Source: Lachnospiraceae bacterium
Lineage (GTDB): Bacteria; Bacillota; Clostridia; Lachnospirales; Lachnospiraceae
NCBI GenBank assembly: GCA_045578645.1
Contig: JAZNKQ010000067.1
Coordinates: 8,295-72,294 of the forward strand
Direction: 5' to 3'
DNA length: 64,000 nucleotides
The position numbers and the translations under genes were made by a program. Positions 2,127 to 59,848 of the stretch are shown here, in pieces. Within the stretch, counting starts at the first letter, position 1. Each line of letters starts with the position of its first letter. The notes under the pieces are model-generated. The model did not search any database. It saw only the letters and a list, made by a program, of their open reading frames with translations, and was not told where the DNA came from.

Positions 2127-2252
2127 ATTTTATTCCTCCATTCCGAAGCGTAGGTTCTGACAAAACCGGAGATTTTGTACAGTATCTGCGCACATATATG
2201 ACGCTTCGGCATACATATGCTGTTGATAATCGACTGCTTATACAGAACAAGG

Positions 2253-3306: not shown

Positions 3307-3360
3307 ACAAGATGCGGAGTATACCGGCGGGACGGATGGAAAAAGCTCCGGATATGGCAA

Positions 3361-3398
3361 AAGCCGCGAAAACAGCAGAGAGCCTGTTTTTGCGGCTT
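3361..3398. terminator. bidirectional intrinsic terminator between convergent genes
   Basis: AAGCCGCGAAAACAG / CTGTTTTTGCGGCTT inverted repeat with flanking T/A runs. Confidence 0.6.
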
Positions 3399-3415
3399 AA
3401 TTCTTTTATTTGCTG

Positions 3416-4291: not shown

Positions 4292-4303
4292 ACTATGCTC
4301 CAT

Positions 4304-4402
4304 TTCTGAGCGACCTGTCGCGAGGAATATCATAATGGCTATTTGCTTTCGCTCAGAAACAAATAGCCGTGTGAAAAAGCATATTTATATGATTTTTCGC
4401 AC
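4304..4402 (-). repeat. conserved ~100-nt structured leader element, copy A (in the 5' UTR of the GDPD gene)
   Basis: The reverse complement aligns with copies at 45034-45130 and 48605-48700. The 35-mer GGCTATTTGTTTCTGAGCGAAAGCAAATAGCCATT is identical to copy B. Hairpin 1 has 2 mismatches here. Confidence 0.85.
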
Positions 4403-4441
4403 TATGCCTCCGATTTTAATCACTGCCATACGGCAGAAGAA

Positions 4442-4469
4442 ATTATAGCACAGGCAGATAAAAAATCAA
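4442..4469 (-). promoter_or_regulatory. sigma-A type promoter for the GDPD gene
   Basis: On the minus strand: TTGATT, a 16-nt spacer, then TATAAT. This places the repeat element inside the transcribed leader. Confidence 0.55.
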
Positions 4470-4551
4470 TATAAGCAGCTTCTTTTTATGTAATAAACCA
4501 CGGTCTGCATCGCATATACTGCTATAAAAAACATGCTTGAAAGGGGAAGCT

Positions 4552-30413: not shown

Positions 30414-31193
30414 ATGGTCGCTAAAGGGAGAATGAGGGAGGAAATGAAGGAAAATAACGACATTTTAATTGAGGTTAAGAATGCCAGAAAAATCTACCAC
30501 ATGGGTCGTGAACGGATTCGTGCCGTAGATGGTGTCAGCTTTGATATACGTCGCGGTGAATTCTGCTGCCTTCTCGGAACCTCGGGTTCCGGAAAGTCTA
30601 CGCTCCTTAATCTTATGGCGGGCATTGAAAAGCTCACCTCAGGGGAAATATTGATTAAGGGAAAATCCATCAGTAAGATGAATGAAAACAAGCTGGCAAA
30701 GTTCAGACAGGATCATCTGGGATTTGTATTCCAGTCCTATAACCTGCTGGGCTCGATGACTGCGCAGGAAAATGTTGAATTCCCGCTGGTATTTAAAAGG
30801 GTTCCTGCCAAAAAGCGCAGGAAGATGGCTAGGGATATGCTGGTTAAGGTCGGGCTGAAGACAAGACTTAAGCATAAGCCGAAGGAGATGTCCGGCGGAC
30901 AGCAGCAGAGAGTCGGAATAGCGAGGGCATTTGTGGCTAAGCCTGAGATAGTTTTTGCGGATGAGCCGACGGGAAATCTTGACTCAAGAACAACAACGGA
31001 AATAATGGATCTGATAAAGGAAATTGCCGTGAGCAATAAACAGACCATTGTTATGGTAACGCATGACCGGAAGCTTTCCGAATATGCTGACAAAATAATA
31101 CATATTATGGATGGGAAAATCCAGAGCATAGAAGTGAAGAATGATGAGATGCCTGAGGGGCAGACAGGAGGAAATGATGAAGAAATTAAGTAG
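30414..31193 (+). CDS. ABC transporter ATP-binding protein, MacB/LolD/FtsE-like
   Basis: Walker A GTSGSGKST, signature LSGGQQQRVGIARA, Walker B VFADEPTGNLD. The start is ambiguous (30414, 30432 or 30444). Confidence 0.9.
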   Translation: MVAKGRMREEMKENNDILIEVKNARKIYHMGRERIRAVDGVSFDIRRGEFCCLLGTSGSGKSTLLNLMAGIEKLTSGEILIKGKSISKMNENKLAKFRQDHLGFVFQSYNLLGSMTAQENVEFPLVFKRVPAKKRRKMARDMLVKVGLKTRLKHKPKEMSGGQQQRVGIARAFVAKPEIVFADEPTGNLDSRTTTEIMDLIKEIAVSNKQTIVMVTHDRKLSEYADKIIHIMDGKIQSIEVKNDEMPEGQTGGNDEEIK

Positions 31194-39135: not shown

Positions 39136-39654
39136 ATGGCAGAAGCTAATTGGTATGTTGTACATACCTATTCAGGGTATGAGAACAAGGTCAAAGCGAA
39201 TATTGAGAAAACTATTGAAAACAGAAAGCTTCAAGACCAGATATTAGAAGTATCAGTTCCGCTGCAGGATGTAATCGAAGTTAAGAACGGTGTAAAGAAA
39301 AAGGTTCAGAAGAAGATGTTTCCGGGCTACGTACTGCTTAATATGATCATGAATGATGATACATGGTACGTTGTGCGTAATACACGCGGAGTTACGGGAT
39401 TTGTCGGTCCCGGATCAAAGCCGGTGCCGCTTACGGAAGAGGAAATGAAGAGTATGGGCTTCAGACCGGATGAAATCATTGTTGATTTCGAGGAAGGAGA
39501 TACCGTTACCATTACCTCAGGTGCGTGGGAAAACATGCAGGGAATCATTAAGAAGATTAATACCGAAAAGCAGCTGGTTACAATAAATATCGATATGTTC
39601 GGCAGAGAAACACCTGTTGAGATTAGTTTCACAGACGTTAAGGTAGAAAGATAA
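39136..39654 (+). CDS. nusG: transcription termination/antitermination factor NusG
   Basis: WYVVHTYSGYENKV...FPGYVL... plus a KOW domain. Confidence 0.95.
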   Translation: MAEANWYVVHTYSGYENKVKANIEKTIENRKLQDQILEVSVPLQDVIEVKNGVKKKVQKKMFPGYVLLNMIMNDDTWYVVRNTRGVTGFVGPGSKPVPLTEEEMKSMGFRPDEIIVDFEEGDTVTITSGAWENMQGIIKKINTEKQLVTINIDMFGRETPVEISFTDVKVER

Positions 39655-39682
39655 GTGAAAGGTTTTATGGAGGATTTTTAAA

Positions 39683-40108
39683 ATGGCTAAGAAAGTTACA
39701 GGTTATATCAAATTACAGATTCCAGCTGGAAAGGCTACCCCGGCTCCTCCGGTAGGTCCCGCTCTTGGTCAGCATGGTGTCAATATTGCACAGTTTACTA
39801 AGGAATTCAACGCTAAGACAGCAGATAAGGGTGATTTAATTATCCCTGTTGTTATTACTGTATATGCTGACAGAAGCTTCAGCTTCATCACAAAGACCCC
39901 CCCTGCTGCAGTTCTTTTAAAGAAGGCATGCAACATTAAGACCGCTTCAGGTCAGCCTAACAAGAACAAGGTAGCAAAGATTAAGAAGGCAGAAGTTGAG
40001 AAGATTGCTGAGTTAAAGATGCCTGATCTTAATGCAGCAAGCCTTGAAGCTGCAACCAGTATGATTTGCGGTACAGCAAGAAGTATGGGAATCGTTGTTG
40101 AGGACTAA
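39683..40108 (+). CDS. rplK: 50S ribosomal protein L11
   Basis: [27 protein letters not shown]. Confidence 0.95.
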
Positions 40109-40155
40109 TACAACTACAACTAATTTTTAATCATATAATCATAGAAAAAGTGGAA

Positions 40156-40219
40156 GGGTAAATAACCCCATAATACTACGGGGTAACCCCATAATAATAC
40201 GGGGTAACCCGATAATACC
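40156..40219 (+). repeat. three tandem ~21-nt units in the rplK-rplA spacer, each containing a GGGGTAACCCC mini-hairpin
   Basis: GGGTAAATAACCCCATAATACTAC / GGGGTAACCCCATAATAATAC / GGGGTAACCCGATAATACC, directly upstream of the rplA SD. Confidence 0.7.
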
Positions 40220-40235
40220 ACTGGGAGGTTGAATC

Positions 40236-40931
40236 ATGAAAAGAGGAAAGAAATATATTGAGGTTGCAAAGCTTGTTGACCGTACAGTACAGTATGATGT
40301 TAACGAGGCATGCAGTTTAGTTAAGAAGACATCTATCGCTAAGTTTGATGAGACAATTGAAGCTCATTTCAGACTCGGAGTTGACGGACGTCACGCTGAT
40401 CAGCAGGTTCGTGGTGCGGTTGTATTACCTCACGGAACCGGTAAGACAGTAAGAGTACTTGTTTTTGCTAAGGGCGACAAGGTTGCTGAGGCAGAGGCAG
40501 CAGGTGCTGATTACGTTGGTGGCGATGAGCTCATTCCCAAGATTCAGAACGAAGGCTGGTTTGAGTTTGACGTAGTTGTTGCTACACCTGATATGATGGG
40601 TGTTGTTGGTCGTTTAGGACGTGTTCTCGGACCTAAGGGTCTCATGCCTAACCCTAAGGCAGGTACCGTTACTATGGACGTTACCAAGGCTGTTAAGGAT
40701 ATTAAGGCAGGTAAGATTGAGTACAGACTTGACAAGACAAACATTATCCACTGCCCTGTTGGAAAGGCTTCTTTCTCAGAGGAGCAGCTTGCTGATAACC
40801 TCAACACACTTATCAGTGCATTAATCAAGGCTAAGCCCGCAGCTGCAAAGGGAACATATGTTAAGAGTGCTACAATTGCTTCTTCAATGGGCCCCGGAAT
40901 CAAGCTTAACGCTTCAAAGTTTAATGCATAA
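40236..40931 (+). CDS. rplA: 50S ribosomal protein L1
   Basis: Full-length L1 homologue in the conserved position. Confidence 0.95.
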
Positions 40932-41690: not shown

Positions 41691-42056
41691 ATGACTACAG
41701 TAGAGTTTATCGATGCTATAAAGAGCATGACAGTTTTAGAGCTTAACGAGTTAGTTAAGGCTTGTGAAGAAGAGTTCGGCGTTAGCGCAGCAGCAGGTGT
41801 TGTTGTAGCAGCTGGTCCTGCAGCAGGTGCAGAGGCAGAAGAGAAGACAGAGTTCAACGTTGAGTTAACAGAAGTTGGCGCAGAGAAGGTTAAGGTTATT
41901 AAGGTTGTTCGTGAAATCACCGGTCTTGGCCTCAAGGAAGCTAAGGATGCTGTTGATGGCGCTCCCAAGGTTATCAAGGAAGGCGCTAGCAAGGCAGAAG
42001 CTGACGAAATCAAGAAGAAGCTTGAGGAAGTTGGAGCTAAGGTTACTCTTAAGTAA
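41691..42056 (+). CDS. rplL: 50S ribosomal protein L7/L12
   Basis: Ala-rich hinge followed by [16 protein letters not shown]. Confidence 0.95.
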
Positions 42057-42468: not shown

Positions 42469-45021
42469 ATGAAATCGAACAAAGAAAAAGTATATGACTT
42501 TATAAAGCTTCATGATAATGAGGAGCGTGGCGGCGGAGTTTCAACCTCGTATATAGCGGATGCACTGGAGCTCCAGCGAACAAATGTGAGTAGTGCGCTG
42601 AATCTGCTCGTTTCGGAGGGGAGAATTCAAAAGAGGAACGGAAGACCGGTTCTTTATGGGATTATTCATGCTGAAAATGCAGAAGGCAATGACTGCTTTT
42701 CTGATCTTACGGGGCATGACGGCAGCTTAAAGCGCGCGATACAGCTTGCGAAGGCGGCTGTGTTATATCCCGAAAAAGCGCTTAATTCGATGCTGGTAGG
42801 TGCGCGGGGAACGGGAAAAAGCCGTATGGCGAAGCGAATGTATCAGTTTGCGGTTGAGCAGGCTGTACTTCCTCAAAATTCGCCGTTTATCCGGGTTGAT
42901 TGTCACGATTATCGTTCGAAGGAGCATCTTGCGGAGGAGCTTGCAGAAATTTGGAAGAAGGCATCCAATGGGGTGGTTTTTCTTGATAATATACAGTTTC
43001 TCAGCAGCCGTGCACGAAAAGAGGTACTTGAATATGTGCGTTCGAAGGAGCGTAATTATGCATTGATTGTGAGCTGTACGGACCGTGGCTGTCTGCCGGA
43101 TGAGTTTCTTGCGGAGTTTCCGATACAGATTGAGCTTCCGGCTCTTTCGCAGCGACCGGTCAGCGAACGGTTTGAGATGGTAAAGAAGCTGCTGCAAAAG
43201 GAAGCGGCACGAATTGGGAGGACTCTTATTATTCGCAGTGAACTGATGCGGTGCCTGCTGCTTTATGAATGCGAAGCCAATTATTATCAGCTGAAGGGTG
43301 ATATAAAAATCGGCTGCGCCAACGCCTATGTAAGGGAGTATAAAAACAAAGAGGATATAAGGCTGTTTGCGGGTGATTTTGCAAATCCGGTAAGGAAGGG
43401 CTTTTTAAGGTATCACTTGTACAGGAGAGAAATCGACGAGCTGATTTCTTCGGACCAAAGCTACATTTTTGACGGTAAGACCGTCAGTGTAAGTGCGTCC
43501 GATAAGAACAGTCTGTATGACAAATTGAATAAGAAGGCTGCGACGCTTAACGAGACCGGATTTGAGGAGGATGAAATAGGTCTGATTCTGAGTGCGGAGG
43601 TTGAGCGGTCGTTTGGAGAATATCAGAAGGATCTGCTGCGTGATGTGGGGGATAAGAGTCAGCTTGAGGCGCTGGCAGACGCAAAGCTGATTCAATTGGT
43701 TGAACAGTTTTTGAAGGATGCGGAAGCGCATCTTGACAGGAAGCTGTCGGACTCTGTTTTTTACGGTCTGTGTCTTCATCTGAATGCGGTAATAGCCGGA
43801 AGGAGAGAGCCGGAGCAGCCTGATAAGAGCCGGATAGCAGATATTCTCGGAAACCATAAAAGGGAATATCTGCTGAGTGCGGAATTTGCAGAGAGGCTTG
43901 CGAAGGAATATGATATAGAGCTTGCAATGGGTGAGATAATCCTGATTACTATGTTTCTCTGCTTTGAAAATGAGGAGCTGCCGCAGAGCGGAAAGCCGGT
44001 TATTCTGTATGCGCTTTACGGAGAAGGAATTGCGACGGCTATAGTTAAGGCTATTACGGGAATGACAAAATGGGATAATGTATTTCCGTACGAGCTGACC
44101 GGCGATAAAAATTCTGTTGAAACCTATGAGGCGCTGAAGGAGTACATTGCGGGGATAAACAGAGGAAAAGGGGTTCTGGTTGTATACGACAGCGGCTCCC
44201 TGCCTGAAATGCTGTCGGAGATTGAGGAGGAGCTTGACATTCCTATAAGACAGATTCCGATGCCTGTTACGACAATCGGAATTGAGCTTGCACGCAGAAC
44301 CATGACTGAGGATAACGCTGATATGGTATTGCGCAGTGCGATAAAGAATGTCGGAGCAGTCGGCGCATTCAGGAATAATTATATCGTAACGCTTTGCACG
44401 ACGGGCAAGGGAAGTGCGGAGGAGCTTAAGCGGTATATTGAAAGGAACGGACAGCTTAAGGATACGGAAGTTATCGCAATGTCGTATAGCGAAAGAGATG
44501 TGCTTTCGCAGGAATTCAGAAAGCTTATGCGGAACGGTATTATTAACTGTGTTGTGGGAACCTTTGACCCGCAGCTGTTTTCAATACCCTTTATTTCAAT
44601 CAGCGAGGTTTTCAGCGTCAGAAAGGACGGACTTCCAAAGCTTCTTTGTCTGGAGAAGGAAGCAAAGTCGCGAATTGATTACAATGCAATGTTTGATTAT
44701 CTGGGAGAGCAGCTTTGTTATGTAAATACAGATAAATTGAGAAAGTTGCTGCCTGAGACGCTGAGAGTAATAAATTCGGAGATTTCCGAGCTGTCGCTGG
44801 ATACGGAAGCGGGACTGCTGATTCATATTTCCTGCTGCATTGACCGTCTTATTGCAAAGGAGCCTACGGCGACGAACCCGAGGAAGAAAATGATACTTTC
44901 AAAGTATGATAAGGAATTCAGGGAACTGCTCAGGATTTTCAGACCGATTGAAAAAACATTTCATATCATTATAAATGACGATGAGATTGCCAATATACTT
45001 ATGATTATATATCAACTGTAG
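42469..45021 (+). CDS. LevR-like PRD-domain transcriptional regulator (wHTH, degenerate AAA+/sigma-54-interaction domain, PRD, EIIA-Man-like, EIIB-Gat-like, PRD)
   Basis: Walker A GARGTGKS, PRD-like segments (LCLHLNAV, LLIHISCCIDRL) and an EIIB-like LCTTGKGSAEEL. It lies directly upstream of the PTS operon. Confidence 0.8.
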   Translation: MKSNKEKVYDFIKLHDNEERGGGVSTSYIADALELQRTNVSSALNLLVSEGRIQKRNGRPVLYGIIHAENAEGNDCFSDLTGHDGSLKRAIQLAKAAVLYPEKALNSMLVGARGTGKSRMAKRMYQFAVEQAVLPQNSPFIRVDCHDYRSKEHLAEELAEIWKKASNGVVFLDNIQFLSSRARKEVLEYVRSKERNYALIVSCTDRGCLPDEFLAEFPIQIELPALSQRPVSERFEMVKKLLQKEAARIGRTLIIRSELMRCLLLYECEANYYQLKGDIKIGCANAYVREYKNKEDIRLFAGDFANPVRKGFLRYHLYRREIDELISSDQSYIFDGKTVSVSASDKNSLYDKLNKKAATLNETGFEEDEIGLILSAEVERSFGEYQKDLLRDVGDKSQLEALADAKLIQLVEQFLKDAEAHLDRKLSDSVFYGLCLHLNAVIAGRREPEQPDKSRIADILGNHKREYLLSAEFAERLAKEYDIELAMGEIILITMFLCFENEELPQSGKPVILYALYGEGIATAIVKAITGMTKWDNVFPYELTGDKNSVETYEALKEYIAGINRGKGVLVVYDSGSLPEMLSEIEEELDIPIRQIPMPVTTIGIELARRTMTEDNADMVLRSAIKNVGAVGAFRNNYIVTLCTTGKGSAEELKRYIERNGQLKDTEVIAMSYSERDVLSQEFRKLMRNGIINCVVGTFDPQLFSIPFISISEVFSVRKDGLPKLLCLEKEAKSRIDYNAMFDYLGEQLCYVNTDKLRKLLPETLRVINSEISELSLDTEAGLLIHISCCIDRLIAKEPTATNPRKKMILSKYDKEFRELLRIFRPIEKTFHIIINDDEIANILMIIYQL

Positions 45022-45033
45022 AATGGGAGGATA

Positions 45034-45130
45034 GTGTGAAAAATCATATATTAGATTTTTCACACGGCTATTTGTTTCTGAGCGAAAGCAAATAGCCATT
45101 GCGATATTCTTCGCGACAGGTCGCTTGGAG
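45034..45130 (+). repeat. conserved ~100-nt structured leader element, copy B (upstream of the PTS IIA gene)
   Basis: GTGTGAAAAATC-N8-GATTTTTCACAC (perfect 12-bp inverted repeat), GGCTATTTG-N14-CAAATAGCC, and a conserved 3' segment ending at the SD. Confidence 0.9.
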
Positions 45131-45142
45131 ATGGAGGATAAA

Positions 45143-45466
45143 ATGACTGACGAATTAATGGAGAAGCTTGAAGAAATTTCAATGATGATTATAGCGAATT
45201 CAGGGGCAGCGCGTTCAAACGCATTTGCTGCACTGGCAGAGGCAAAGCAGGGCAGATTCGAGGCTGCCGACGAGCTTTTAAAGGCTGCGGAGGAGAGTCT
45301 GCAGACAGCACATGAATCTCATAGAGAGCTGCTTAAGCTTGATGCAACCGGCGAAATTGAGAAGGTAAGTATTTTGCTTTGTCATGCGCAGGACCATCTG
45401 ATGGGCAGCGCTCTTGCAGGAGACCTGATAAAGGAAATGATATTGCTTTACAGGGATAAGAAATAA
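45143..45466 (+). CDS. PTS lactose/cellobiose-family EIIA
   Basis: 107 aa with the helical-bundle EIIA-Lac pattern (IIANSGAARS...HAQDHLM). GGAGG lies 5 nt upstream. Confidence 0.9.
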   Translation: MTDELMEKLEEISMMIIANSGAARSNAFAALAEAKQGRFEAADELLKAAEESLQTAHESHRELLKLDATGEIEKVSILLCHAQDHLMGSALAGDLIKEMILLYRDKK

Positions 45467-45482
45467 AACGAAGGGGGGTAGC

Positions 45483-45785
45483 ATGATGGACAGAAAAGTA
45501 TTGTTGATATGCGCAGGGGGTATGTCAACGGGAATTCTCATGAAGAAGATGGAGAAATACGCGGTTGAGCAGGGCTTTAATCTTCAGATTGAAGCTATCG
45601 GAATGTCGTCTTATGAGGAAGTCTGTAAAAACTATGATGTCATCTTACTCGGACCGCAGGTGTCCTATAAGAAGGCTGAAATAGAAGAGGTTACACAGAT
45701 GCCGATTGCCGTGATTGCGGCATATGATTATGCGGTGGGAAATGTAGCCAATATTATGAAACAGGTAGAAGAGCTCTATAAGTAA
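45483..45785 (+). CDS. PTS lactose/cellobiose-family EIIB
   Basis: Active-site Cys context KVLLICAGGMSTG. Confidence 0.9.
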   Translation: MMDRKVLLICAGGMSTGILMKKMEKYAVEQGFNLQIEAIGMSSYEEVCKNYDVILLGPQVSYKKAEIEEVTQMPIAVIAAYDYAVGNVANIMKQVEELYK

Positions 45786-45807
45786 TGTATTTTGAAAGGG
45801 GATAATT

Positions 45808-48578
<2,771 letters not shown>

Positions 48579-48604
48579 AGTTAAATTCTTCAAAATGGAG
48601 ACTA

Positions 48605-48700
48605 GTGTGAAAAATCATATATTATGATTTTTCACACAGCTATTTGTTTCTGAGCGAAAACAAATAGCCATTGCGGTATTCCTTGCGACAAGTCGCTCAG
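48605..48700 (+). repeat. conserved ~100-nt structured leader element, copy C (between the GH1 gene and ptsH)
   Basis: It has the same two hairpins and 3' segment as copies A and B, with 2 substitutions in the 35-nt core. Confidence 0.9.
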
Positions 48701-48714
48701 AAATGAGGATTGGT

Positions 48715-48981
48715 ATGGTTAAGAGAGAGGTTGAAATAATAAATAAGACAGGCCTGCATGCGCGCCCCGCATCAGATTTTGTCCTTAATGCCAAGAAATT
48801 TGAAAGTAAGATAACGGTCTGTAAAGAGGGCGGGGAGCCGGTTAATGCAAAATCAATTGTAAGGCTTCTTGCAGAGGGTATCGGACAAGGGGATAAAATT
48901 GAGATTACCGCAGCCGGTGAGGATGAAGCGGAAGCCCTTGACTGTCTGGCGGCATTGGTAGAAAGCGGATTCGGTGAGTGA
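48715..48981 (+). CDS. ptsH: phosphocarrier protein HPr
   Basis: 88 aa, with GLHARPA (His15) and NAKSIV (Ser46). Confidence 0.9.
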   Translation: MVKREVEIINKTGLHARPASDFVLNAKKFESKITVCKEGGEPVNAKSIVRLLAEGIGQGDKIEITAAGEDEAEALDCLAALVESGFGE

Positions 48982-49006
48982 TAAAAACGGGGAGGAGGTG
49001 AGCGTT

Positions 49007-50719
49007 TTGAAAAGCAGCAGAACAGCTTTAACGGGAAGCCCTGTTTCACCGGGTATTGCCGTGGCGAAAGCATATCTTTATTATCCCTTGGAGCTTGCCG
49101 TTGCAGAGGGGTATTTTGCGGCAGGAGAAGAGGAGGCGAATCTGAAGCATTTTCATGACGCACTCCGTCTTGCGGGAGAAGAGCTGGAAGACCTGTACGA
49201 AATGCTTTGCAAAGAGGATGCCGTCAAGGCGAAAATCTTTGCGGCACACAAGGAGATTCTTGAGGACGAGGAGATAATAGAGGAAATCAGGATGGCGATT
49301 GAAGATGACAGGATGAATCCGGATTTTGCCATCGACAAGGTATTTACGGAATTTGCGGGAATGCTGTCAAGAGTCGCAGACCCGCTGATTGCCGGAAGGG
49401 CTGCGGATTTGCATGATGTTAAGAAGCGTCTCGTCCGTATTTATCAGGGGAAGAGTGAAAAGAATCTGTCGGGGCTTACGGAGGATGTTATTGTTATAGC
49501 ACATGATTTGCTTCCGAGTGACACGGCAACCATGGACAGGGAACATGTAAAGGGCATTGTAACCGAAACGGGGGGGTATAATTCGCATTCGGCAATCCTT
49601 GCAAGGAGCTTCGGGATTCCTGCGGTACTCGGTGTGGGTGCGGTTATGTCGGAGATTCCTGATTTGGCGCTGCTGGCGGTAGATGCACTGACGGGAGAGC
49701 TTACGGTTAATCCGTCGGAGGAGGAAATTGCCTGCTGTGAGCAGAAAAGGAAGGCATTTTTGGAGGAGAAGCGAAAAGAGGAGCAGTATCTTGATAAGCC
49801 GGCGGTTATGAAGGACGGTACAAAAATAGGGCTGGGGATTAATGTCGGCTCACCGGAATTTGATATACCCAAAACACGGTTTGATTTTGTCGGATTGTTC
49901 AGGACCGAGTTTCTGTATATGGAAAACAGCTCGCTTCCGGATGAGGATGAGCAGTTCGAGGCCTATAAAAAGGCTCTGATTAGTGCAAAGGGACATCCGG
50001 TGACCTTGCGTACGCTTGATATCGGAGGAGATAAGACCCTTCCGTATATGAAGCTGCCCGCAGAGGAGAATCCTTTTCTCGGTAAGCGTGCGCTGCGTCT
50101 TTGTCTGGCAGAAAGGGAGATGTTTATGACACAGCTTCGTGCCGCGTTAAGAGCATCTGCCTTCGGACCGCTTAAGCTGATGTTCCCGATGGTAGGCAGC
50201 ATAGAGGATATAATAAGTGCGAAGTGCTGTGTGGAGCTTGCAAAGGATGAGCTCTCAAGGGAAGGGATTCCCTTCGACCGTGATATTAAAATTGGAATAA
50301 TGATAGAGGTTCCATCCATAGCGCTGATTGCGGACCTGGCAGCAGCCGAGGTGGATTTTGCGAGCATAGGCTCGAATGATCTGACACAGTACATAAGTGC
50401 GGCGGATCGCATGAATCCTGAGGTGACACCCTATTATCAGAATTATTCTCCGGCAATGCTGCGTCTGCTCGGATTTGTTTTTGATGCCTTTAATGCATGC
50501 GGAAAGGAAATTTCCGTATGCGGTGAGATGGCAGGGAGCCCGCGTGCTGCGGTTGCACTTGTAGGACTCGGAGCTAAAAGGCTTAGTATGAGTGCGGCTA
50601 ATGTTGCGGGGGTAAAGGCTGCGCTGGCGGGTGTAAGTCTGAGTGATGCCGAAAGAATCGCATCAGAATGCAGATGCATGAAAACCGAAAAAGAGATTAA
50701 GGAATTTCTGGGGATATAA
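49007..50719 (+). CDS. ptsI: phosphoenolpyruvate-protein phosphotransferase (PTS enzyme I)
   Basis: GSPVSPGIAV..., GGYNSHSAILARS (phospho-His) and a PEP-utilizing C-terminal domain. The TTG start at 49007 lies 8 nt after GGAGGAGG; the in-frame GTG at 48974 is an alternative. Confidence 0.9.
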   Translation: MKSSRTALTGSPVSPGIAVAKAYLYYPLELAVAEGYFAAGEEEANLKHFHDALRLAGEELEDLYEMLCKEDAVKAKIFAAHKEILEDEEIIEEIRMAIEDDRMNPDFAIDKVFTEFAGMLSRVADPLIAGRAADLHDVKKRLVRIYQGKSEKNLSGLTEDVIVIAHDLLPSDTATMDREHVKGIVTETGGYNSHSAILARSFGIPAVLGVGAVMSEIPDLALLAVDALTGELTVNPSEEEIACCEQKRKAFLEEKRKEEQYLDKPAVMKDGTKIGLGINVGSPEFDIPKTRFDFVGLFRTEFLYMENSSLPDEDEQFEAYKKALISAKGHPVTLRTLDIGGDKTLPYMKLPAEENPFLGKRALRLCLAEREMFMTQLRAALRASAFGPLKLMFPMVGSIEDIISAKCCVELAKDELSREGIPFDRDIKIGIMIEVPSIALIADLAAAEVDFASIGSNDLTQYISAADRMNPEVTPYYQNYSPAMLRLLGFVFDAFNACGKEISVCGEMAGSPRAAVALVGLGAKRLSMSAANVAGVKAALAGVSLSDAERIASECRCMKTEKEIKEFLGI

Positions 50720-50796
50720 AATATACTTGCAATGATGTCGGTAATCCTTTTATAATATAATTAAGTATGCATATTTTACGGAAAGGAGACCGGATT

Positions 50797-51231
50797 ATGT
50801 CAATTGCTTTAGCCTCACGTGTGCGTAATGAGATGTGCTATATTCAGATATGCATTGATGAATATGAAGAAGGCGAAATCTGCGGTCGCCTTTACAATGC
50901 ATATTACAGCGATGCCATTTTTTTTGATAACGGAATGGAAATGATTAGAAAAATGGACGCGATATTTGACCAGTTCGGCTATCCGCGCCCGACTATGGAT
51001 CTGAGAAGCTTTCGCGATGAGGAGACTCCCAAGCTTCCGCGTCTTAAGTGTTCACCCATGACTGTATTGAAGAAGCATACATCACGGGGAAAACTTGCCA
51101 CGTTTAAGACCAGAATAATGTTCCGTCAGAATGCGAGCTGGCAGGGGCTGGTTAAGTGGCTTGAGGAGGATGTGGAGGAGAACTTTGCAAGCATGCTTGA
51201 GCTTCTCATGCTGATGAACAGTATATTTTAG
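50797..51231 (+). CDS. hypothetical protein
   Basis: 144-aa ORF with an AAGGAG SD. No family recognised. Confidence 0.4.
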   Translation: MSIALASRVRNEMCYIQICIDEYEEGEICGRLYNAYYSDAIFFDNGMEMIRKMDAIFDQFGYPRPTMDLRSFRDEETPKLPRLKCSPMTVLKKHTSRGKLATFKTRIMFRQNASWQGLVKWLEEDVEENFASMLELLMLMNSIF

Positions 51232-51243
51232 GGGAATGAATTA

Positions 51244-51789
51244 TTGAAGAAGAGTTTGATTAACATTGGTTTGATCGGAATAAACGGGTTAATGTGGGCG
51301 GTATGTGTTCTCATGTTCGGGATGAGTGCGGATACCGTTCTTATGTGTCTGCTGTGCAGCGCACTGGTTGTCGTGAGTATTTATGACTGCCGGGAGCGGA
51401 TTATTCCGCTTTGGATAAACCTGTTTATTTTCCTGCTGGGAGCCGTGCGGCTTTTTATGAATATTGAATTCTGGTATGATTATGCGGCCGGCTTTTTTAT
51501 CGTAAGTGCCTTTTTGCTTATTATGTACTATATAACAAAGGGGAAGTCGGTCGGAGGCGGAGATATAAAGCTTGTTGCCGTAACGGGACTGTTTCTCGGA
51601 TGGAAGTATATACTCGTGGCATTTATTATCGGGTGCTTAGCAGCGTGCATAATTCACCCTGTAAGAATGCGCCTGTTCGGAAGGGGACGCGAGCTTGCAC
51701 TCGGTCCGTATCTTTCGTTCGGAGTAATCATTACATTGTGGTTCGGAAATTTCATATTGGGAAAATATCTCGAATTGTTTGCTGTATGA
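51244..51789 (+). CDS. A24-family prepilin peptidase (no methyltransferase domain)
   Basis: Two Asp motifs (IYDCRERIIP and GGGDIKL) in a polytopic protein, with a TTG start. Confidence 0.7.
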   Translation: MKKSLINIGLIGINGLMWAVCVLMFGMSADTVLMCLLCSALVVVSIYDCRERIIPLWINLFIFLLGAVRLFMNIEFWYDYAAGFFIVSAFLLIMYYITKGKSVGGGDIKLVAVTGLFLGWKYILVAFIIGCLAACIIHPVRMRLFGRGRELALGPYLSFGVIITLWFGNFILGKYLELFAV

Positions 51790-51861: not shown

Positions 51862-52080
51862 GAAAAGTGCACATTTGTCGTCAATATGCCTACTCATACC
51901 TAGTATAGCATATATGGCTTCAAATGAAAAGACTTTTTTAAAAATTTTTCATCAAAATACACAAGATAAGCCTTTTTGTGAGAAAAGGTTAGTTTTCTTG
52001 TGGCTTTTGTGTGAATATTTAAATGTTTTTACTGGTTACATAAGTAATACCTATAATAATTTCAAGGGGTGAAAACGTCA

Positions 52081-55000
52081 ATGATGGAAAAAAACAGAAT
52101 ACGTCCAATCCATGTCGGTAAAGGCGTAAGAATGAGCTACTCGAACCAGAAGGAAGTTTTGGAAATGCCCAATCTTATTGAGGTTCAGAAGGATTCCTAC
52201 AGATGGTTTCTGGAGGAAGGACTTAATGAGGTTTTCAGGGATATTTCTCCGATTGAGGACTATAACGGACATCTCAGTCTTGAGTTCATAAGCTTCCAGC
52301 TGTGCGAGGACGACGCAAAGTATTCGATAGAAGAATGTAAAGAAAGAGATGCTACTTATGCGGCTCCCTTGAAGGTTAAGGTAAGGCTTCATAATAAAGA
52401 AGATGAAGAAGTAATAAAGGATCACGAGATTTTCATGGGCGATTTCCCGCTTATGACAGAAACCGGAACCTTTGTTATTAACGGCGCGGAAAGAGTTATC
52501 GTAAGCCAGCTGGTACGTTCTCCCGGCATCTACTACGAGATTTCACATGACAAGCTTGGTAAGAGACTTTTCGCATGTACGGTTATCCCCAGCCGTGGTG
52601 CGTGGCTTGAGTATGAGACTGATTCAAACGATGTATTTTATGTACGTGTAGACCGTAACAGAAAGGTTCCGATTACGGTATTTCTTCGTGCTCTGGGTGT
52701 CGGAACAGCTAACCAGATTAAGGAGATGTTCGGTGAGGAGCCTAAGATTCTGGCATCACTCGGTAAGGACCCTTCGGAAGAAGACAATTACGAGTCCGGT
52801 CTTAAGGAGCTTTATAAAAAGCTTCGTCCCGGTGAGCCTATTTCTGTTGAAAGCGCAGAGTCTCTCGTAAAGAGCATGTTCTTTGATGCAAGACGTTATG
52901 ATCTTGCCAAGGTCGGCAGATACAAGTTTAATAAGAAGCTTGCACTCCGTAACAGAATAGTCGGATTTGCACTGGCTGAAGATGTAATAGATAAGACAAC
53001 GGGTGAGATAATTGCGGAAGCAGGAACAAGAGTAACAGAGGAGCTTGCCGTACAGATTCAGAACGCAGCCGTATTCTCTGTTCTTATCCAGACCGAGGAG
53101 AGAAACATTAAGGTTCTCAGTAATCTTATGGTTGACCTTGCTGCGCATGTTCCTTTTGCATGCGATGATAAGGTTAAGGCAGCTCTCGGAATAACAGAGG
53201 ATGTATATTATCCTGCACTTAAGGAATTACTTGAGCAGTTCAGTGACGAAGAGGAGCTTAAGGAAGCTATTAAGCGTCATGTGAACGAGCTTATTCCCAA
53301 GCATATTACAAGAGAAGATATTTTCGCTTCAATTAACTATAACATGCATATCGAATATGGTATCGGCCATAAGGATGATATCGACCACCTCGGTAACAGA
53401 CGTATCCGTGCGGTAGGTGAGCTCCTTCAGAACCAGTACCGTATCGGTCTTTCCAGAATGGAAAGAGTTGTTCGTGAGAGAATGACAACACAGGATCTTG
53501 AGGGTGTAAGTCCTCAGTCCCTGATTAATATTAAGCCCGTAACCGCAGCAGTTAAGGAGTTCTTCGGAAGCTCACAGCTGTCACAGTTCATGGACCAGCA
53601 CAATCCTCTTGGTGAGCTTGCTCATAAGAGACGTCTTTCGGCACTCGGACCCGGAGGTCTTTCAAGAGACCGTGCAGGTTTCGAGGTTCGAGACGTACAC
53701 TATTCACATTACGGAAGAATGTGTCCCATTGAGACACCCGAAGGTCCTAACATCGGTCTTATTAACTCACTTGCATCATATGCAAGAATTAATGAATACG
53801 GCTTTATTGAAGCACCCTATCGTAAGCTTGATAAAACCGATCCTCAGAATCCCCGCGTAACCGATGAGGTTATTTATATGACTGCGGATGAAGAGGATAA
53901 GTACGTAGTTGCACAGGCTAACGAGCCGCTTGACGAGAACGGATACTTTATTAATAACAATATATCCGGACGTTTTAAGGCAGATACATCACAGTTCCTT
54001 AAGTCAAAGATCGACTTCATGGACGTATCTCCCAAGATGGTATTCTCTGTTGCAACAGCGCTGATTCCTTTCCTTGAGAACGACGATGCTAACCGTGCCC
54101 TCATGGGCTCTAACATGCAGCGTCAGGCAGTTCCGCTTCTCAGAACTCAGGCTCCCGTTGTCGGAACCGGTATGGAGAAGAAGACAGCTGTTGACTCAGG
54201 TGTTTGCGTACTTTCAAAGCATGCGGGACGTGTTGAGCGTTCTACTGCTTCATGCATAACCATTCGTAACGAGGACGGAACCCGTTCGGATTACAAGCTT
54301 CTTAAGTTCACAAGAAGTAACCAGGGTACCTGCATCAATCAGCGTCCTATCGTTAATAAGGGTGACATTGTTGAGGCCGGACAGGTAATTGCTGATGGTC
54401 CTTCAACCTCATTCGGTGAGCTTGCTCTCGGAACAAATCCGCTTATCGGATTCATGACCTGGGAAGGCTACAACTACGAGGATGCGGTTCTCCTTAGTGA
54501 GAGACTTGTGCAGGAGGATATATATACATCTGTTCATATTGAGGAATATGAGGCAGAGGCCCGTGACACCAAGCTCGGACCGGAAGAGATAACACGTGAT
54601 GTTCCCGGCGTTGGTGATGATGCGCTTAAGGATCTTGATGAGCGCGGTATCATCCGTATCGGTGCTGAGGTTCGTGCGGGAGATATTCTTGTTGGTAAGG
54701 TAACTCCTAAGGGAGAGACTGAGCTTACGGCTGAGGAGAGACTTCTCCGTGCAATCTTTGGTGAGAAGGCAAGAGAAGTAAGAGATACATCACTTCGTGT
54801 ACCTCACGGTGAGTACGGAATTATTGTTGATGCTAAGGTGTTTACACGTGAAAACGGCGATGAGCTTCCTCCCGGAGTAAACCAGAGCGTTCGTGTATAC
54901 ATTGCACAGAAGAGAAAGATTCAGGTCGGCGATAAGATGGCAGGCCGTCACGGTAACAAGGGTGTTGTTTCCCGCGTATTACCTGTTGAGGATATGCCTT

Positions 55001-55947
55001 TCCTTCCCAACGGAAGACCGCTTGATATCGTTCTTAACCCCCTGGGCGTTCCTTCACGTATGAATATCGGACAGGTGCTTGAAATCCATCTGAGCCTTGC
55101 TGCAAAGGTTCTTGGTTTCAATATTGCAACACCCGTATTCGACGGAGCAAACGAGTTTGATATCATGGATACTCTTGAGATGGCAAATGACTACGTTAAT
55201 ACACCTCTTGAGGATTTCCAGAAGAAATATAAGGATTGTCTTGATGAAGAAACCATGGAATATCTGGTTACAAATCAGGATTATCGTAAGCAGTGGGAAG
55301 GTGTTCCCATTAACCGTGACGGAAAGGTAAGACTTCGTGACGGACGTACGGGTGAGTACTTTGACGGTGCTGTTACCGTCGGCTTCATGCACTATCTGAA
55401 GCTTCACCATCTGGTTGACGATAAGATTCATGCACGTTCAACCGGTCCTTACTCACTTGTTACCCAGCAGCCTTTGGGCGGCAAGGCACAATTCGGCGGA
55501 CAGCGTTTTGGTGAGATGGAGGTTTGGGCACTCGAGGCATATGGTGCTGCTCATGTACTTCAGGAAATTCTTACCGTTAAGTCTGATGATGTTACCGGAC
55601 GTGTAAAGACCTATGAGGCAATCATAAAGGGAGAGAATATCTCCGAACCGGGTATACCGGAGTCCTTCAAGGTGCTCTTAAAGGAGCTTCAGTCACTTGC
55701 ACTTGATGTTACCGTTCTTGATGAGAACGGCAGTGAAGTTAAGCTGACAGAGGACATCGATTACGGTGAGGGCGACGGCTCTTCATGGCAGGAAGGCAAT
55801 GAAGGCTATGATGCAAGCTATGATGAGAATTACGGCAATGCAGGCTACACCGAAATCGGACCTGACGAAGCAGACAGCTATTTCGACTCCTATCAGGAGG
55901 ATAATATGTTTTCTGACCTCGACGAGCATTACGATGACAAAGAATAA
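52081..55947 (+). CDS. rpoB: DNA-directed RNA polymerase subunit beta, with an acidic/Tyr-rich C-terminal extension
   Basis: Full-length RpoB homology. The start at MMEKNRIRP follows AAGGGGTGA. Confidence 0.97.
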
Positions 55948-55963: not shown

Positions 55964-58900
55964 ATGCAGATGATGTCTACAGATATGAATATGGATACTG
56001 TCAGGGAAATTAATTACGAGGCAATCAGAATCGGCCTTGCTTCCCCTGAGAAGATTCGTGAATGGTCTAGAGCAGAGGTTAAGAAGCCGGAGACTATAAA
56101 TTACAGAACATTAAAGCCTGAGAAGGACGGTCTGTTCTGTGAAAAGATTTTCGGACCCAGCAAGGATTGGGAGTGTCACTGCGGAAAGTACAAGAAAATC
56201 CGTTTTAAGGGTGTTGTATGTGACCGTTGTGGCGTAGAGGTTACCAAGGCAAGCGTAAGACGTGAGAGAATGGGTCACATCGAGCTTGCGGCACCGGTAT
56301 CGCACATTTGGTATTTCAAGGGTATTCCCAGCCGTATGGGACTTATGCTTGATCTTTCTCCGAGAACACTCGAGAAGGTTCTGTACTTCGCATCCTATAT
56401 CGTACTTGATAAGGGTGAGACAGATTTGCAGTATAAGCAGGTACTCAACGAGAAGGAATATACCGAGGCAAGAGAGAAATACAAGGATAAGAAGTTCCGT
56501 GTAGGAATGGGCGCAGAGGCCATTATGGAGCTTCTTAAGGATATAGATCTCGAGAAGGATTCTGCAGAGCTTAAGGCAGAGCTTAAAAACTCAACAGGCC
56601 AGAAGCGTGCAAGAATTATCAAGAGACTTGAGGTTGTAGAGGCATTCAGAGAGTCAGGAAACCGTCCCGAATGGATGATTATGACTGTTATTCCGGTGCT
56701 TCCGCCCGATCTTCGTCCCATGGTTCAGCTGGAGGGCGGACGTTTTGCAACCTCAGATATGAACGATTTATATCGTCGTATAATTAACAGAAATAATCGT
56801 CTTAAGAGACTCCTTGAGCTGGGAGCTCCCGATATCATTGTAAGAAATGAAAAGCGTATGCTTCAGGAAGCCGTTGATGCACTTATTGACAACGGAAGAA
56901 GAGGCAGACCTGTTACAGGTCCCGGAAACCGTCCGCTTAAGTCACTTTCTGATATGTTAAAGGGTAAGCAGGGTCGTTTCCGTCAGAACCTTCTCGGAAA
57001 GCGTGTTGACTATTCCGGACGTTCTGTTATCGTAGTAGGACCCGAGCTCAAGATATATCAGTGCGGTCTTCCTAAGGAGATGGCAATTGAGCTGTTTAAG
57101 CCCTTCGTTATGAAGGAGCTTGTTGAGCGCGGAACCGCTCATAATATTAAGTCAGCAAAGAAGATGGTCGAAAGACTTCAGAATGAGGTATGGGACGTTC
57201 TTGAGGACGTTATCCGTGAGCATCCCGTAATGCTTAACCGTGCTCCTACACTTCACAGACTCGGTATTCAGGCATTTGAGCCCATTCTTGTTGAGGGTAA
57301 GGCAATTAAGCTTCATCCGCTTGTATGTACCGCATTCAATGCAGACTTCGACGGAGATCAGATGGCTGTCCATCTTCCTCTGTCAGTTGAGGCGCAGGCT
57401 GAGGCACGTTTCCTCATGCTTTCACCCAACAACCTGCTGAAGCCTTCAGACGGTGGCCCCGTTGCAGTTCCTTCACAGGATATGGTACTTGGTATTTACT
57501 ACCTTACTCTTATGAAGGACGGAGATCTTGGTGAGGGTAAGATATTCAAGAACATAAACGAAGCTATTCTTGCTTACGAGAACGGAGCAATTACTCTTCA
57601 CGCAAAGATTAACGTAAGACGTGAGGGTATTTTCCCTGAGACCGGTGAGAAGATTACAAAGGTTATTCAGTCAACTCTCGGACGCTTTATCTTCAACGAG
57701 ATTATTTCACAGGATCTTGGCTATGTTGACAGAACAAATCCTGAGAATTACCTTGATCTTGAGGTTGATTTCCTTGTTAAGAAGAAGGAGCTTAAGGGAA
57801 TTCTTGAGAAGTGCATTAACACACACGGCGCTACAATGACCGCTGAGACACTTGATGCGATTAAGGCGCTGGGATATAAATACTCGACAAGAGCAGCAAT
57901 GACTGTTTCGATTTCGGATATGACAGTTCCTCCTGCAAAGAAGGATATTATTGCCAATGCCGAGGAGACAATTGACTTCATTTCGAAGAAGTTCCGTCGC
58001 GGTATGCTTACTGAAGCGGAAAGATATAAGACAGTTATCGAAACCTGGAAGGCTGCCGATGACAGCATTACCAAGGAGCTGATGGCAGGTCTTGATAAGT
58101 ACAACAACATCTTCATGATGGCTGATTCAGGAGCACGTGGTTATGACAAGTAGTTTAAGCAGCTTGCCGGTATGCGTGGACTTATGGCAGATACATCAGG
58201 TAAGACTATCGAGTTGCCTATTAAGGCTAACTTCCGTGAGGGTCTTGACGTTCTGGAATACTTCATTTCAGCTCACGGTGCAAGAAAGGGTCTTTCCGAT
58301 ACAGCGCTCAGAACTGCCGATTCAGGATACCTTACACGTCGTCTTGTTGACGTTTCACAGGATCTTATTATTCGTGAGAATGATTGCTGTGAGGGCAGTG
58401 AGGAAGTTCCCGGAATGTGGATTAAGGCATTTGCTGACGGTAAGGAAGTTATCGAGAGCCTTAAGGAGCGTATTACAGGAAGATTTGCATGTGAAACTCT
58501 TTATGATGATAACGGTGAAGTTATCGTTGAGAAGAATCATATGATTACTCCCAAGCGTGCTGCACGTATTGTTGCAACCAAGAGCATTGCGGAGAAGGGC
58601 TTTGCAGCAAGCATCAAGATTCGTACCGTTCTTACCTGTAAGTCACATCTCGGTGTCTGCGCTAAGTGTTACGGTGCTAACATGGCTACAGGTGAGCCTG
58701 TTCAGGTTGGTGAGGCAGTCGGTATTATTGCGGCACAGTCAATCGGTGAGCCCGGTACACAGCTTACAATGCGTACCTTCCATACCGGTGGTGTTGCGGG
58801 CGATGATATCACACAGGGTCTTCCCCGTGTCGAGGAGCTTTTCGAGGCAAGAAAGCCGAAGGGACTTGCAATCATTGCAGAGTTCGGCGGTACGGTTGCC

Positions 58901-59848
58901 ATTAAGGATACAAAGAAGAAGCGCGAGGTTATTGTTACAAACCAGAGTGATGATAATCTTGAGTCAAAAACATATCTCATTCCCTACGGTTCACGTATTA
59001 AGGTTACCGACGGACAGGTTATTGAAGCCGGTGATGAGCTTACCGAGGGTAGCGTAAATCCTCATGATATTCTGAAGATTAAGGGTGTTCGCGCCGTTCA
59101 GGATTACATGATTCAGGAAGTTCAGAGAGTATACCGTTTACAGGGTGTTGAGATTAACGATAAGCATATCGAGGTTATTGTACGTCAGATGCTTAAGAAG
59201 GTTCGTATCGAAACTAACGGCGATACCGATTTCCTTCCCGGAAGCATGGTTGATATACTTGATTTCCTTGATGTTAATGAGCAGATGGCGGCAGAAGGAA
59301 AAGAGCCCGCTGACGGAAAGCAGGTTATGCTTGGTATTACAAAGGCTTCACTTGCTACTAACTCCTTCCTTTCAGCAGCATCCTTCCAGGAGACAACAAA
59401 GGTTCTTACCGAAGCAGCATGCCACGGAAAGATTGACCCGCTTATCGGACTTAAGGAAAATGTTATTATCGGTAAGCTGATTCCTGCCGGAACCGGTATG
59501 AAGAATTACCGTAATGTTCGTCTCAGCACAGATGCAGCTGTTGAAGCAGATACCTACTATAACGGTATGTATGATGACGGATACGGCAATGGTGAGTATT
59601 ATGATGATACTTATCAGGACGGCGGTGCTTACTACGATCAGAACGGCGAGTATTACGATGACGGCTACAGCGATGGATATGCAGACGAGTATAGCGGCGA
59701 ATATGCAGATGATGGCTATCAGGGTGAATACGCTGACGGCAGCTACACTGAGAGCGCTTATATAGAGGATGCAGGCTATGCCGATGATTACGCTGAGGGA
59801 ACTTATTCAGAGGATTATTATACAGATTCGGATGATGATGCAGAGTAA
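55964..59848 (+). CDS. rpoC: DNA-directed RNA polymerase subunit beta', a single reading frame interrupted by an in-frame TAG at 58151-58153, with an Asp/Tyr/Gly-rich C-terminal extension
   Basis: NADFDGDQM is in the first part and the bridge-helix region ([31 protein letters not shown]) in the second. Both ORFs (55964-58153 and 58172-59848) are in the same frame. Confidence 0.95.

What the first reader, a model, noticed from the sequence alone, without database searches (positions are those of the whole stretch)
58120..58200. In-frame TAG inside the conserved core of rpoC, with no frameshift
SEEN:
- The rpoC frame that opens at 55964 hits TAG at 58151-58153 and continues in the same frame to 59848.
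- The translation reads ...[43 protein letters not shown]....
- Both sides are contiguous parts of the universally conserved beta' segment. From memory, E. coli reads [23 protein letters not shown] and B. subtilis reads [21 protein letters not shown].
- The stop therefore replaces a single sense codon, aligned with Gln in E. coli and Asn in B. subtilis.
- The next ATG (58172) has no SD. Restarting there would delete the conserved FKQLAG.
- TAG is a real terminator elsewhere in the window: rpmG, dtd, the YesM-like kinase and the LevR-like gene all end at TAG with expected lengths.

INFERENCE (alternatives):
(a) A sequencing or assembly error, or a very recent nonsense mutation. CAG to TAG is one transition.
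(b) Amber suppression or programmed read-through, for example via a tRNA with a CUA anticodon.
(c) A genuinely split beta'.
Because rpoC is essential, (b) and (c) would be biologically remarkable.
Basis: partly seen in the sequence, partly recalled or inferred. Interest (0 to 1): 0.7.

Follow-up and report, generated by a model that had tools for sequence, protein, structure and literature searches.

The report
Probable sequence error inside rpoC
The essential RNA polymerase gene rpoC really does contain an in-frame TAG stop, but the stop is one of three base changes packed into 12 bases at otherwise invariant positions, which points to a local sequencing or assembly defect (or damaged template) rather than a new way of reading stop codons.

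Summary
The rpoC frame 55964-59848 is interrupted by one TAG at 58151-58153, and both sides are contiguous beta' sequence.

All 159 related Lachnospiraceae loci and 240 related proteins read S-[DEQNS]-x-Q-I/V-K-Q (TCN ... CAG ATY). The window reads Y-D-K-*-F-K-Q. That is three single-base substitutions within 12 nt:
- 58143 C>A
- 58151 C>T
- 58154 A>T

Across 1443 rpoC nucleotide columns that are >=99% invariant in relatives, the window deviates at only four, and three of them are these (chance of such clustering about 1e-4). The rest of rpoC, the rpoB 3' end and the other genes of the window are intact.

TAG ends 12 of 50 ORFs, so it is a normal stop here. The window holds no tRNA-CUA. No Shine-Dalgarno (SD) sequence precedes a possible restart codon, and there is no unusual RNA structure. 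The site is not a natural beta' split point.

Best reading (about 0.8): one local lesion in the record, either a base-call, assembly or polishing error or a damaged or non-representative template. The true gene most likely reads Ser...Gln-Ile.

Amber suppression or a split beta' is not excluded, but nothing supports either. No read data or same-species rpoC was available, so the call rests on circumstantial evidence. Interest is low.

The parts
55964..58150 (+). rpoC (beta'), the 729 codons upstream of the stop
   Evidence: TIGR02386 profile positions 1-697. Of 442 near-invariant amino-acid columns, only D19E, D257E and S727Y deviate.
58143..58154 (+). 12-nt cluster of three substitutions relative to every relative: 58143 C>A (TCN>TAT, Ser>Tyr), 58151 C>T (CAG>TAG, Gln>stop), 58154 A>T (ATY>TTT, Ile>Phe)
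   Evidence: 159/159 loci carry C, C and A at these positions; 240 related proteins carry S..Q(I/V). P of about 1.3e-4 that 3 of 4 deviations at invariant nucleotides fall within 12 nt.
58151..58153 (+). In-frame TAG at the position of the invariant Gln (E. coli beta' Q736 by my own numbering)
58154..59848 (+). rpoC, the 564 codons downstream of the stop plus TAA; intact and conserved
   Evidence: TIGR02386 profile positions 702-1146. Of 272 near-invariant columns, only I>F at the first codon deviates. There are no further stops or frameshifts.
58172..58174 (+). First in-frame ATG after the stop (Met of QLAGMRG); the only conceivable restart codon. It has no SD.
   Evidence: the upstream 20 nt, AGTTTAAGCAGCTTGCCGGT, contain no GGAG, GAGG, AGGA or AAGG. 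Relatives carry essentially the same sequence here.

Best explanation
The TAG is not a decoded or regulatory codon. It is one of three base substitutions (58143 C>A, 58151 C>T, 58154 A>T) that arose together as a single local lesion in this sequence record. The cause is either a base-calling, assembly or polishing error, or a damaged or non-representative DNA template such as a low-coverage spot, an amplification artefact, or a dead or minority cell.

The functional rpoC of the organism most likely reads GGT TCT GAC AAG CAG ATT AAG CAG (G-S-D-K-Q-I-K-Q), like every relative, and encodes one continuous beta' of about 1294 aa.

Shown: the cluster, its uniqueness, and the integrity of everything around it. 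Inferred: that the cause is an artefact or lesion rather than biology.
For: 1. All 159 related loci from genomes and metagenomes have TCN / CAG / ATY at the three codons. All 240 related proteins have S..Q(I/V).
2. Of 1443 rpoC nucleotide columns >=99% invariant in relatives, the window deviates at 4, and 3 of these lie within 12 nt. Simulation gives P of about 1.3e-4 for such clustering if the deviations were independent, so there is one cause.
3. All three changes are non-synonymous and radical and two are transversions. The two differences between this species' window and an independent same-species contig (L161, 99.83% identity) are both synonymous transitions.
4. The 564 codons after the stop are as conserved as those before it, with no second lesion. 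Nothing has decayed downstream of the stop, so either it is not real or very recent, or it is read through.
5. rpoC is essential (established knowledge), and TAG is a normal terminator here (12/50 ORFs).
6. No other gene in the window has an in-frame stop flanked by homologous sequence.
7. There is no rescue signal. The window holds no tRNA-CUA, there is no SD before ATG 58172 or 58184, and the RNA fold is ordinary (z = +0.5).
8. Base rate: many short beta' fragments sit on long contigs in public assemblies. One example is L162, a long-read assembly with rpoC cut into at least 4 ORFs.
Against: No reads, quality values or same-species rpoC sequence could be obtained, so the error is inferred and not observed.

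The rest of the 64-kb window looks clean. There are no frameshifts and no other broken genes, and the last 259 residues of RpoB have no deviation in 115 near-invariant columns. This is therefore not a generally noisy assembly.

A substitution-only triple error is not the commonest error signature of any platform.

Phe at the third position is the natural residue in Bacilli (B. subtilis ...NASNFTQLAG). The three codons are spaced i, i+3, i+4, which would put them on one face if the segment is helical (not tested). Both points would fit a real, co-adapted change.

The closest relative is only about 80% identical in nucleotides, so the changes cannot be dated.
Confidence: 0.78

Rival explanations
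1. The TAG and its two neighbours are real and fixed, and the amber codon is translated. This could happen through a suppressor tRNA (anticodon CUA, chromosomal or prophage-borne) elsewhere in the genome, or through near-cognate read-through that inserts Gln, Tyr or Lys. Full-length beta' would still be made. S>Y and I>F would be co-adapted changes in the same short segment, next to the bridge-helix cap.
For: The downstream 564 codons are fully conserved, as expected if they are still translated. The three changed codons are i, i+3, i+4. Phe at the third site occurs naturally in Bacilli. The segment directly precedes beta' R738/R744/L746-A748 (my own numbering), residue numbers listed as contacting the inhibitor salinamide (PMC4029172), so it could be a plausible target of selection. 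The window is otherwise error-free.
Against: The window has no tRNA-CUA. TAG ends 24% of ORFs, so an efficient suppressor would extend many proteins. No other in-frame TAG occurs in any gene of the window. None of 159 loci or 240 proteins of relatives shows any of the three changes, so there are no evolutionary intermediates. There is no stimulatory RNA structure. Uninduced UAG read-through in bacteria is typically 1% or less (established knowledge), which is too little for an essential subunit. Natural amber suppression of an essential housekeeping gene in a standard-code bacterium is essentially unprecedented.
Confidence: 0.08
2. Beta' is genuinely split. Translation stops at TAG and re-initiates at ATG 58172 (or 58184) by termination-reinitiation coupling. 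The result is a 729-aa and a 558-aa polypeptide that assemble into RNA polymerase.
For: Both halves are intact. An in-frame ATG lies 18 nt after the stop. Split beta' subunits exist in nature, in cyanobacteria, chloroplasts and archaea.
Against: The break lies inside the invariant SGARG...QLAGMRG motif. It is about 130-170 residues downstream of the cyanobacterial rpoC1/rpoC2 boundary: the gamma profile ends near window residue 558 and the rpoC2 profile starts near 604. It is also about 100 or more residues upstream of the archaeal A'/A'' boundary. In cyanobacterial beta' chains in the PDB the aligned segment that carries this motif is a single continuous stretch inside RpoC2 (residues 95-220). 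A restart at 58172 would delete the invariant (Q)FKQLAG. No SD precedes it, and the sequence there matches that of unsplit relatives. No relative is split here.
Confidence: 0.02
3. Ribosome hop. Peptidyl-tRNA-Lys detaches from AAG (58148-50), skips TAG TTT, and re-pairs with AAG (58157-59). This would give ...[11 protein letters not shown]..., which is three residues shorter.
For: Identical take-off and landing codons flank the stop: AAG TAG TTT AAG. Short hops over stops are known in E. coli (established knowledge).
Against: The AAG..AAR pair is already present in most relatives shown (AAR CAG ATY AAR), so it is not a new signal. The product would lack three residues of an invariant motif. 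Such hops are inefficient without the elaborate signals seen in T4 gene 60. There is no RNA structure.
Confidence: 0.01

Closest known systems
Assembly- or sequencing-derived internal stops in essential genes ('pseudogenes' flagged by annotation pipelines)
   Same: A single disabling change in an otherwise perfectly conserved, syntenic, essential gene. Nothing has decayed downstream and there is no rescue signal. Broken rpoC ORFs on long contigs are frequent in public assemblies.
   Different: Typical cases are homopolymer frameshifts and occur in many genes of the same assembly (for example L162). Here the lesion is three substitutions in 12 nt and the remaining 64 kb looks clean.
Amber suppression / pyrrolysine-type UAG decoding
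   Same: An in-frame UAG at a sense position with the reading frame maintained on both sides.
   Different: Pyl UAGs sit in methylamine methyltransferase genes of organisms carrying pylTSBCD. Here the codon is in rpoC, at a position that is Gln in every relative. TAG is a common terminator (12/50), and the window holds no suppressor tRNA.
Natural split beta' (cyanobacterial/chloroplast rpoC1-rpoC2; archaeal A'/A'')
   Same: Beta' made as two polypeptides from adjacent ORFs.
   Different: Natural splits lie between conserved modules, and the second ORF has its own start signal. This break is inside an invariant motif, away from both natural split points, with no start signal.
Programmed recoding at a stop (prfB +1 frameshift, T4 gene 60 bypass)
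   Same: A stop codon inside an essential or conserved ORF.
   Different: Those sites are conserved across relatives and carry specific signals (an internal SD, a slippery codon, a stem-loop). Here the stop is unique to one sequence, both sides are in the same frame, and no signal is present.

Membership tests
rpoC (bacterial RNA polymerase beta') | Match to the beta' equivalog profile over its full length, in rpoB-rpoC synteny | tested here: met
   TIGR02386 positions 1-697 and 702-1146 are covered by the two halves. rpoB (NF001616, 1700 bits) lies directly upstream.
Sequence/assembly artefact | The change is absent from all relatives and violates otherwise invariant positions | tested here: met
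   159/159 loci and 240/240 proteins carry the ancestral state at all three sites.
Sequence/assembly artefact | Changes are clustered beyond chance, implying one local cause | tested here: met
   3 of the 4 deviations at 1443 invariant nucleotides fall within 12 nt; P of about 1.3e-4.
Sequence/assembly artefact | Reads or an independent assembly of the same strain show the ancestral bases | not testable with these tools
   No reads are available. The same species was found only as a 1175-nt contig covering nusG-rplK (L161). No same-species rpoC exists in any collection searched.
Stop-codon reassignment / amber suppression | UAG depleted as a terminator and present in-frame in several genes | tested here: not met
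   TAG ends 12 of 50 ORFs. The only other same-frame ORF pair separated by TAG (51229) consists of two unrelated genes.
Stop-codon reassignment / amber suppression | A tRNA with anticodon CUA (or pylT with pylSBCD) in the genome | tested here: inconclusive
   The 64-kb window holds only tRNA-Leu(CAG) and tRNA-Leu(AAG). The rest of the genome is not available.
Programmed read-through / recoding site | The stop and its context are conserved in related genomes, with a stimulatory signal | tested here: not met
   No relative has the stop. The downstream RNA fold has z = +0.5.
Naturally split beta' | The break lies at a module boundary used by known split subunits | tested here: not met
   The cyanobacterial boundary maps to window residues of about 558-604, and the archaeal boundary lies about 100 or more residues downstream of residue 730. 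In the PDB the aligned segment carrying the motif is continuous inside cyanobacterial RpoC2.
Naturally split beta' | The second ORF has its own start codon with a ribosome-binding site and retains all conserved residues | tested here: not met
   The first ATG is 58172, it has no SD, and FKQLAG would be lost.

The most novel reading that the evidence does not exclude
The three changes are real and belong together. A lineage-specific remodelling of the beta' segment that leads into the bridge-helix cap (Ser>Tyr, Gln>X, Ile>Phe), perhaps selected by an RNA-polymerase inhibitor or a channel-binding factor, in which the middle codon is UAG and is decoded by an amber suppressor tRNA. An essential housekeeping gene of a standard-code Lachnospiraceae bacterium would then depend on stop-codon suppression.
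Probability: 0.05. Interest if true: 0.8.

Novelty: not a real feature. Interest (0 to 1): 0.12.

Why it matters
If the TAG were real and decoded, it would be a rare case of an essential bacterial gene depending on stop-codon suppression, and it would point to a hidden suppressor tRNA. The evidence points instead to a local defect in the record. Its practical value is as a quality flag: positions 58143, 58151 and 58154 should be corrected or verified, and rpoC should not be annotated as a pseudogene or as two genes. It also shows that an in-frame stop in a conserved gene should be read together with its immediate neighbours, since co-located radical substitutions are a sign of an artefact.

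Tried and rejected
- **Genome-wide TAG reassignment.** Rejected: 12/50 ORFs end in TAG at expected lengths. The only other TAG-separated same-frame ORF pair (50767-51231 / 51244-51789) consists of two unrelated genes.
- **Suppressor tRNA in the window.** None found.
- **Template-switch or quasi-palindrome or gene-conversion origin of the cluster.** There is no direct or inverted copy of the mutated 14- or 19-mer anywhere in the window. Local repeats do not cover the sites, and the one overlapping palindrome is made worse, not better, by the change.
- **Read-through-stimulating RNA structure.** None; z = +0.5.
- **Restart signals.** No SD before ATG 58172 or 58184.
- **General assembly noise.** No frameshifts in four suspicious overlapping ORF pairs, which are distinct families. 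The last 259 residues of RpoB are clean.
- **Finding the same species elsewhere to read its rpoC.** Exact-protein look-ups of both rpoC halves, rpoB, nusG and fba failed. The DNA pattern scan of metagenomes gave 0 hits. Related-locus scans gave at most 90% amino-acid identity. Three protein searches gave at most 87% identity. Only L11 gave a same-species contig, which is too short to reach rpoC.
- **Recurrent breaks at this site in other assemblies.** Four fragments end within a few residues after the SGARG motif, close to this site. The one inspected (P0300/L162) is a multiply broken long-read assembly, not a conserved feature.
- **Literature search for in-frame stops in rpoC.** Nothing relevant found.

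Full report
**Observation**

The rpoC reading frame starts at ATG 55964, 6 nt downstream of a GGAGG. It runs for 729 codons, meets TAG at 58151-58153, and continues in the same frame for 564 codons to TAA at 59846-59848. The NCBIfam beta' profile TIGR02386 is matched at positions 1-697 by the first part and 702-1146 by the second. One sense codon has therefore been replaced, with no frameshift or insertion. rpoB lies directly upstream.

I fetched 80 related loci from species-representative genomes and 80 from metagenomes. All are Lachnospiraceae or Anaerocolumna-like, and the best has 90% amino-acid identity in the downstream segment.

In 159 of 159 loci that contain the motif, the peptide is ARG-S-[DEQNS]-x-Q-I-K-Q, encoded as TCN ... 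CAG ATY. The 240 proteins returned by two protein searches likewise have S..Q(I/V).

The window reads GGT TAT GAC AAG TAG TTT AAG CAG. The TAG is therefore one of three single-base substitutions within 12 nt:
- 58143 C>A (Ser>Tyr)
- 58151 C>T (Gln>stop)
- 58154 A>T (Ile>Phe)

**How unusual the cluster is**

Of 750 amino-acid columns that are at least 97% invariant among 80 relatives, the window deviates at five. Two are conservative D>E changes and the other three are these sites.

At the nucleotide level, of 1443 columns that are at least 99% invariant among 159 relatives, the window deviates at four: 58017 and the three cluster sites. If four deviations were placed independently on those columns, three would fall within 12 nt with probability of about 1.3e-4. 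The three changes therefore have one cause.

**State of the surrounding sequence**

The 564 codons after the stop show a single deviation in 272 near-invariant columns, which is the Ile>Phe itself. The last 259 residues of RpoB show none in 115.

A scan of all six frames for stops flanked by 80 or more open codons on both sides found one other pair of real genes separated by TAG, at 51229. Pfam shows that these are two unrelated genes, an unknown 154-aa ORF and an A24 prepilin-peptidase-like membrane protein. Four overlapping ORF pairs that might have hidden frameshifts are distinct families. The window is otherwise a clean assembly, and rpoC is not a decaying pseudogene.

**Is TAG a stop in this organism?**

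Yes. Of 50 ORFs taken as genes, 29 end in TAA, 12 in TAG and 9 in TGA. The TAG-terminated ones end where their families end, for example Dtd (profile 1-143/146) and the LevR-like regulator with a terminal PRD domain. The window holds only two tRNA genes, both tRNA-Leu.

**Rescue mechanisms considered**

- *Read-through.* The RNA from 58130 to 58250 folds no better than shuffled controls (z = +0.5), and the stop is absent from every relative, so there is no conserved recoding signal.
- *Re-initiation.* The first in-frame ATGs (58172, 58184) have no SD-like 4-mer upstream. By the same crude test, 30 of 50 uncurated starts in the window do. Starting at 58172 would also delete the invariant FKQLAG.
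- *Split subunit.* The cyanobacterial gamma (rpoC1) profile ends near window residue 558 and the rpoC2 profile begins near residue 604. The archaeal A' profile still matches residues 23-77 of the downstream part. In cyanobacterial beta' chains in the PDB, the aligned segment that carries the motif is one continuous stretch inside RpoC2 (residues 95-220). Residue 730 is therefore at neither natural split point, and it lies inside an invariant motif.
- *Hop from AAG (58148) to AAG (58157).* This is formally possible, but the AAG..AAR pair is already present in most relatives shown, and the product would lack three residues of the motif.

**Origin of the cluster**

I looked for a template that could have produced it by template switching or gene conversion. 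The mutated 19-mer has no match with 5 or fewer mismatches elsewhere in the window. The 14-mer has no match with 2 or fewer mismatches. Local direct and inverted repeats do not explain it, and the palindrome overlapping 58143 becomes less complementary with the change. No biological mechanism for the cluster is evident.

**Independent evidence from the same species**

Exact-product look-ups failed for both rpoC halves, rpoB, nusG and fba. A DNA pattern with N at the three sites found nothing in the metagenome collection. No protein above 87% identity exists in the 5.8-billion-cluster database.

Ribosomal protein L11 did find one 1175-nt contig (ENA ERZ28018977, L161) that is 99.83% identical to window 39160-40334. 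Its two differences are isolated synonymous transitions. That is what ordinary strain variation in this species looks like, and it contrasts with three clustered radical changes, two of them transversions. The contig does not reach rpoC, so the question could not be settled directly.

**Base rate**

The fragment-oriented searches returned many short beta' pieces located on long contigs. One that I inspected (P0300, L162) comes from a long-read assembly in which rpoC is cut into at least four ORFs. Broken rpoC genes caused by assembly errors are common in public data. Natural dependence of rpoC on amber suppression is, to my knowledge, unreported, and a literature search found nothing relevant.

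**Functional location (context only)**

By my own numbering, the three codons correspond to E. coli beta' S733, Q736 and I737. They lie just after the SGARG motif and just before R738/R744/L746-A748. Those residue numbers are the ones listed as contacting salinamide in the bridge-helix cap (PMC4029172). B. subtilis naturally has N..N-F at these positions, so Phe is tolerated in another clade. Tyr at the first position was seen in no sequence examined. The i, i+3, i+4 spacing would place the three residues on one face if the segment is helical, which I did not test. These points keep a small probability alive for a real, co-adapted change.

**Verdict**

The best explanation (about 0.78) is a single local lesion in the record, either a base-call, assembly or polishing error or a damaged or non-representative template. 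The real gene would then encode Ser...Gln-Ile and one continuous beta'.

Rival explanations:
- Real amber codon that is decoded: about 0.08, of which about 0.05 for the co-adapted remodelling version
- Split beta' with re-initiation: about 0.02
- Ribosome hop: about 0.01

The main weakness of the verdict is that it rests on circumstantial evidence. The window is otherwise clean, a substitution-only triplet is not a classic error signature, and no reads were available. Read pile-ups or a PCR product would settle the question at once.

Noticed in passing
window 42469-51789: About 9.3 kb is inserted between rplL (41691-42056) and rpoB (52069-55947), interrupting the usual rplKAJL-rpoBC cluster. 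It holds a LevR-like sigma-54/PRD regulator, PTS lactose/cellobiose IIA, IIB and IIC, a GH1 glycosidase, PtsI (enzyme I), an unknown 154-aa ORF and an A24 prepilin-peptidase-like protein.
   Followed up: no
window 59498-59845: RpoC ends in a 116-aa low-complexity tail rich in Tyr, Asp, Glu and Gly. Relatives also have acidic tails of 72-129 aa with variable Tyr content, and one (P0009) has 21% Tyr. This looks like a clade feature rather than something unique to this genome.
   Followed up: partly
L161 (ENA ERZ28018977, contig k141_2374427) versus window 39160-40334: An independent metagenome contig is 99.83% identical to the window over nusG-rplK-rplA. The two differences (39375 G/A, 39937 T/C) are synonymous transitions. 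The same species is present in that sample, so its reads could be used to check rpoC.
   Followed up: partly
window 50767-51789: An unknown 154-aa ORF ends in TAG (51229), and the next ORF (an A24 peptidase-like protein with a TTG start at 51244) is in the same frame. I checked this as a second read-through candidate and rejected it: the upstream ORF matches no Pfam or NCBIfam family, and the A24 domain is complete in the downstream ORF.
   Followed up: yes
window 58017: This is the only other place where window rpoC departs from a nucleotide at least 99% invariant in relatives: A>C at codon position 2, residue 685, Glu>Ala in ...MLTEAERYK... It lies 126 nt upstream of the cluster. It may be a real lineage-specific change.
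   Followed up: no
L162 (ENA ERZ27273549, contig_524_polypolish) 1078-4626: In a related organism's long-read assembly, rpoC is cut into at least four ORFs (562, 83, 268 and 110 aa). This is an example of assembly-broken rpoC in public data.
   Followed up: partly
window 30414-33669: An ABC-transporter ATPase (259 aa) is followed, with a 53-nt overlap, by an 842-aa protein with NPCBM_assoc/CARDB/DUF11 repeat domains. Both end in TAG.
   Followed up: no
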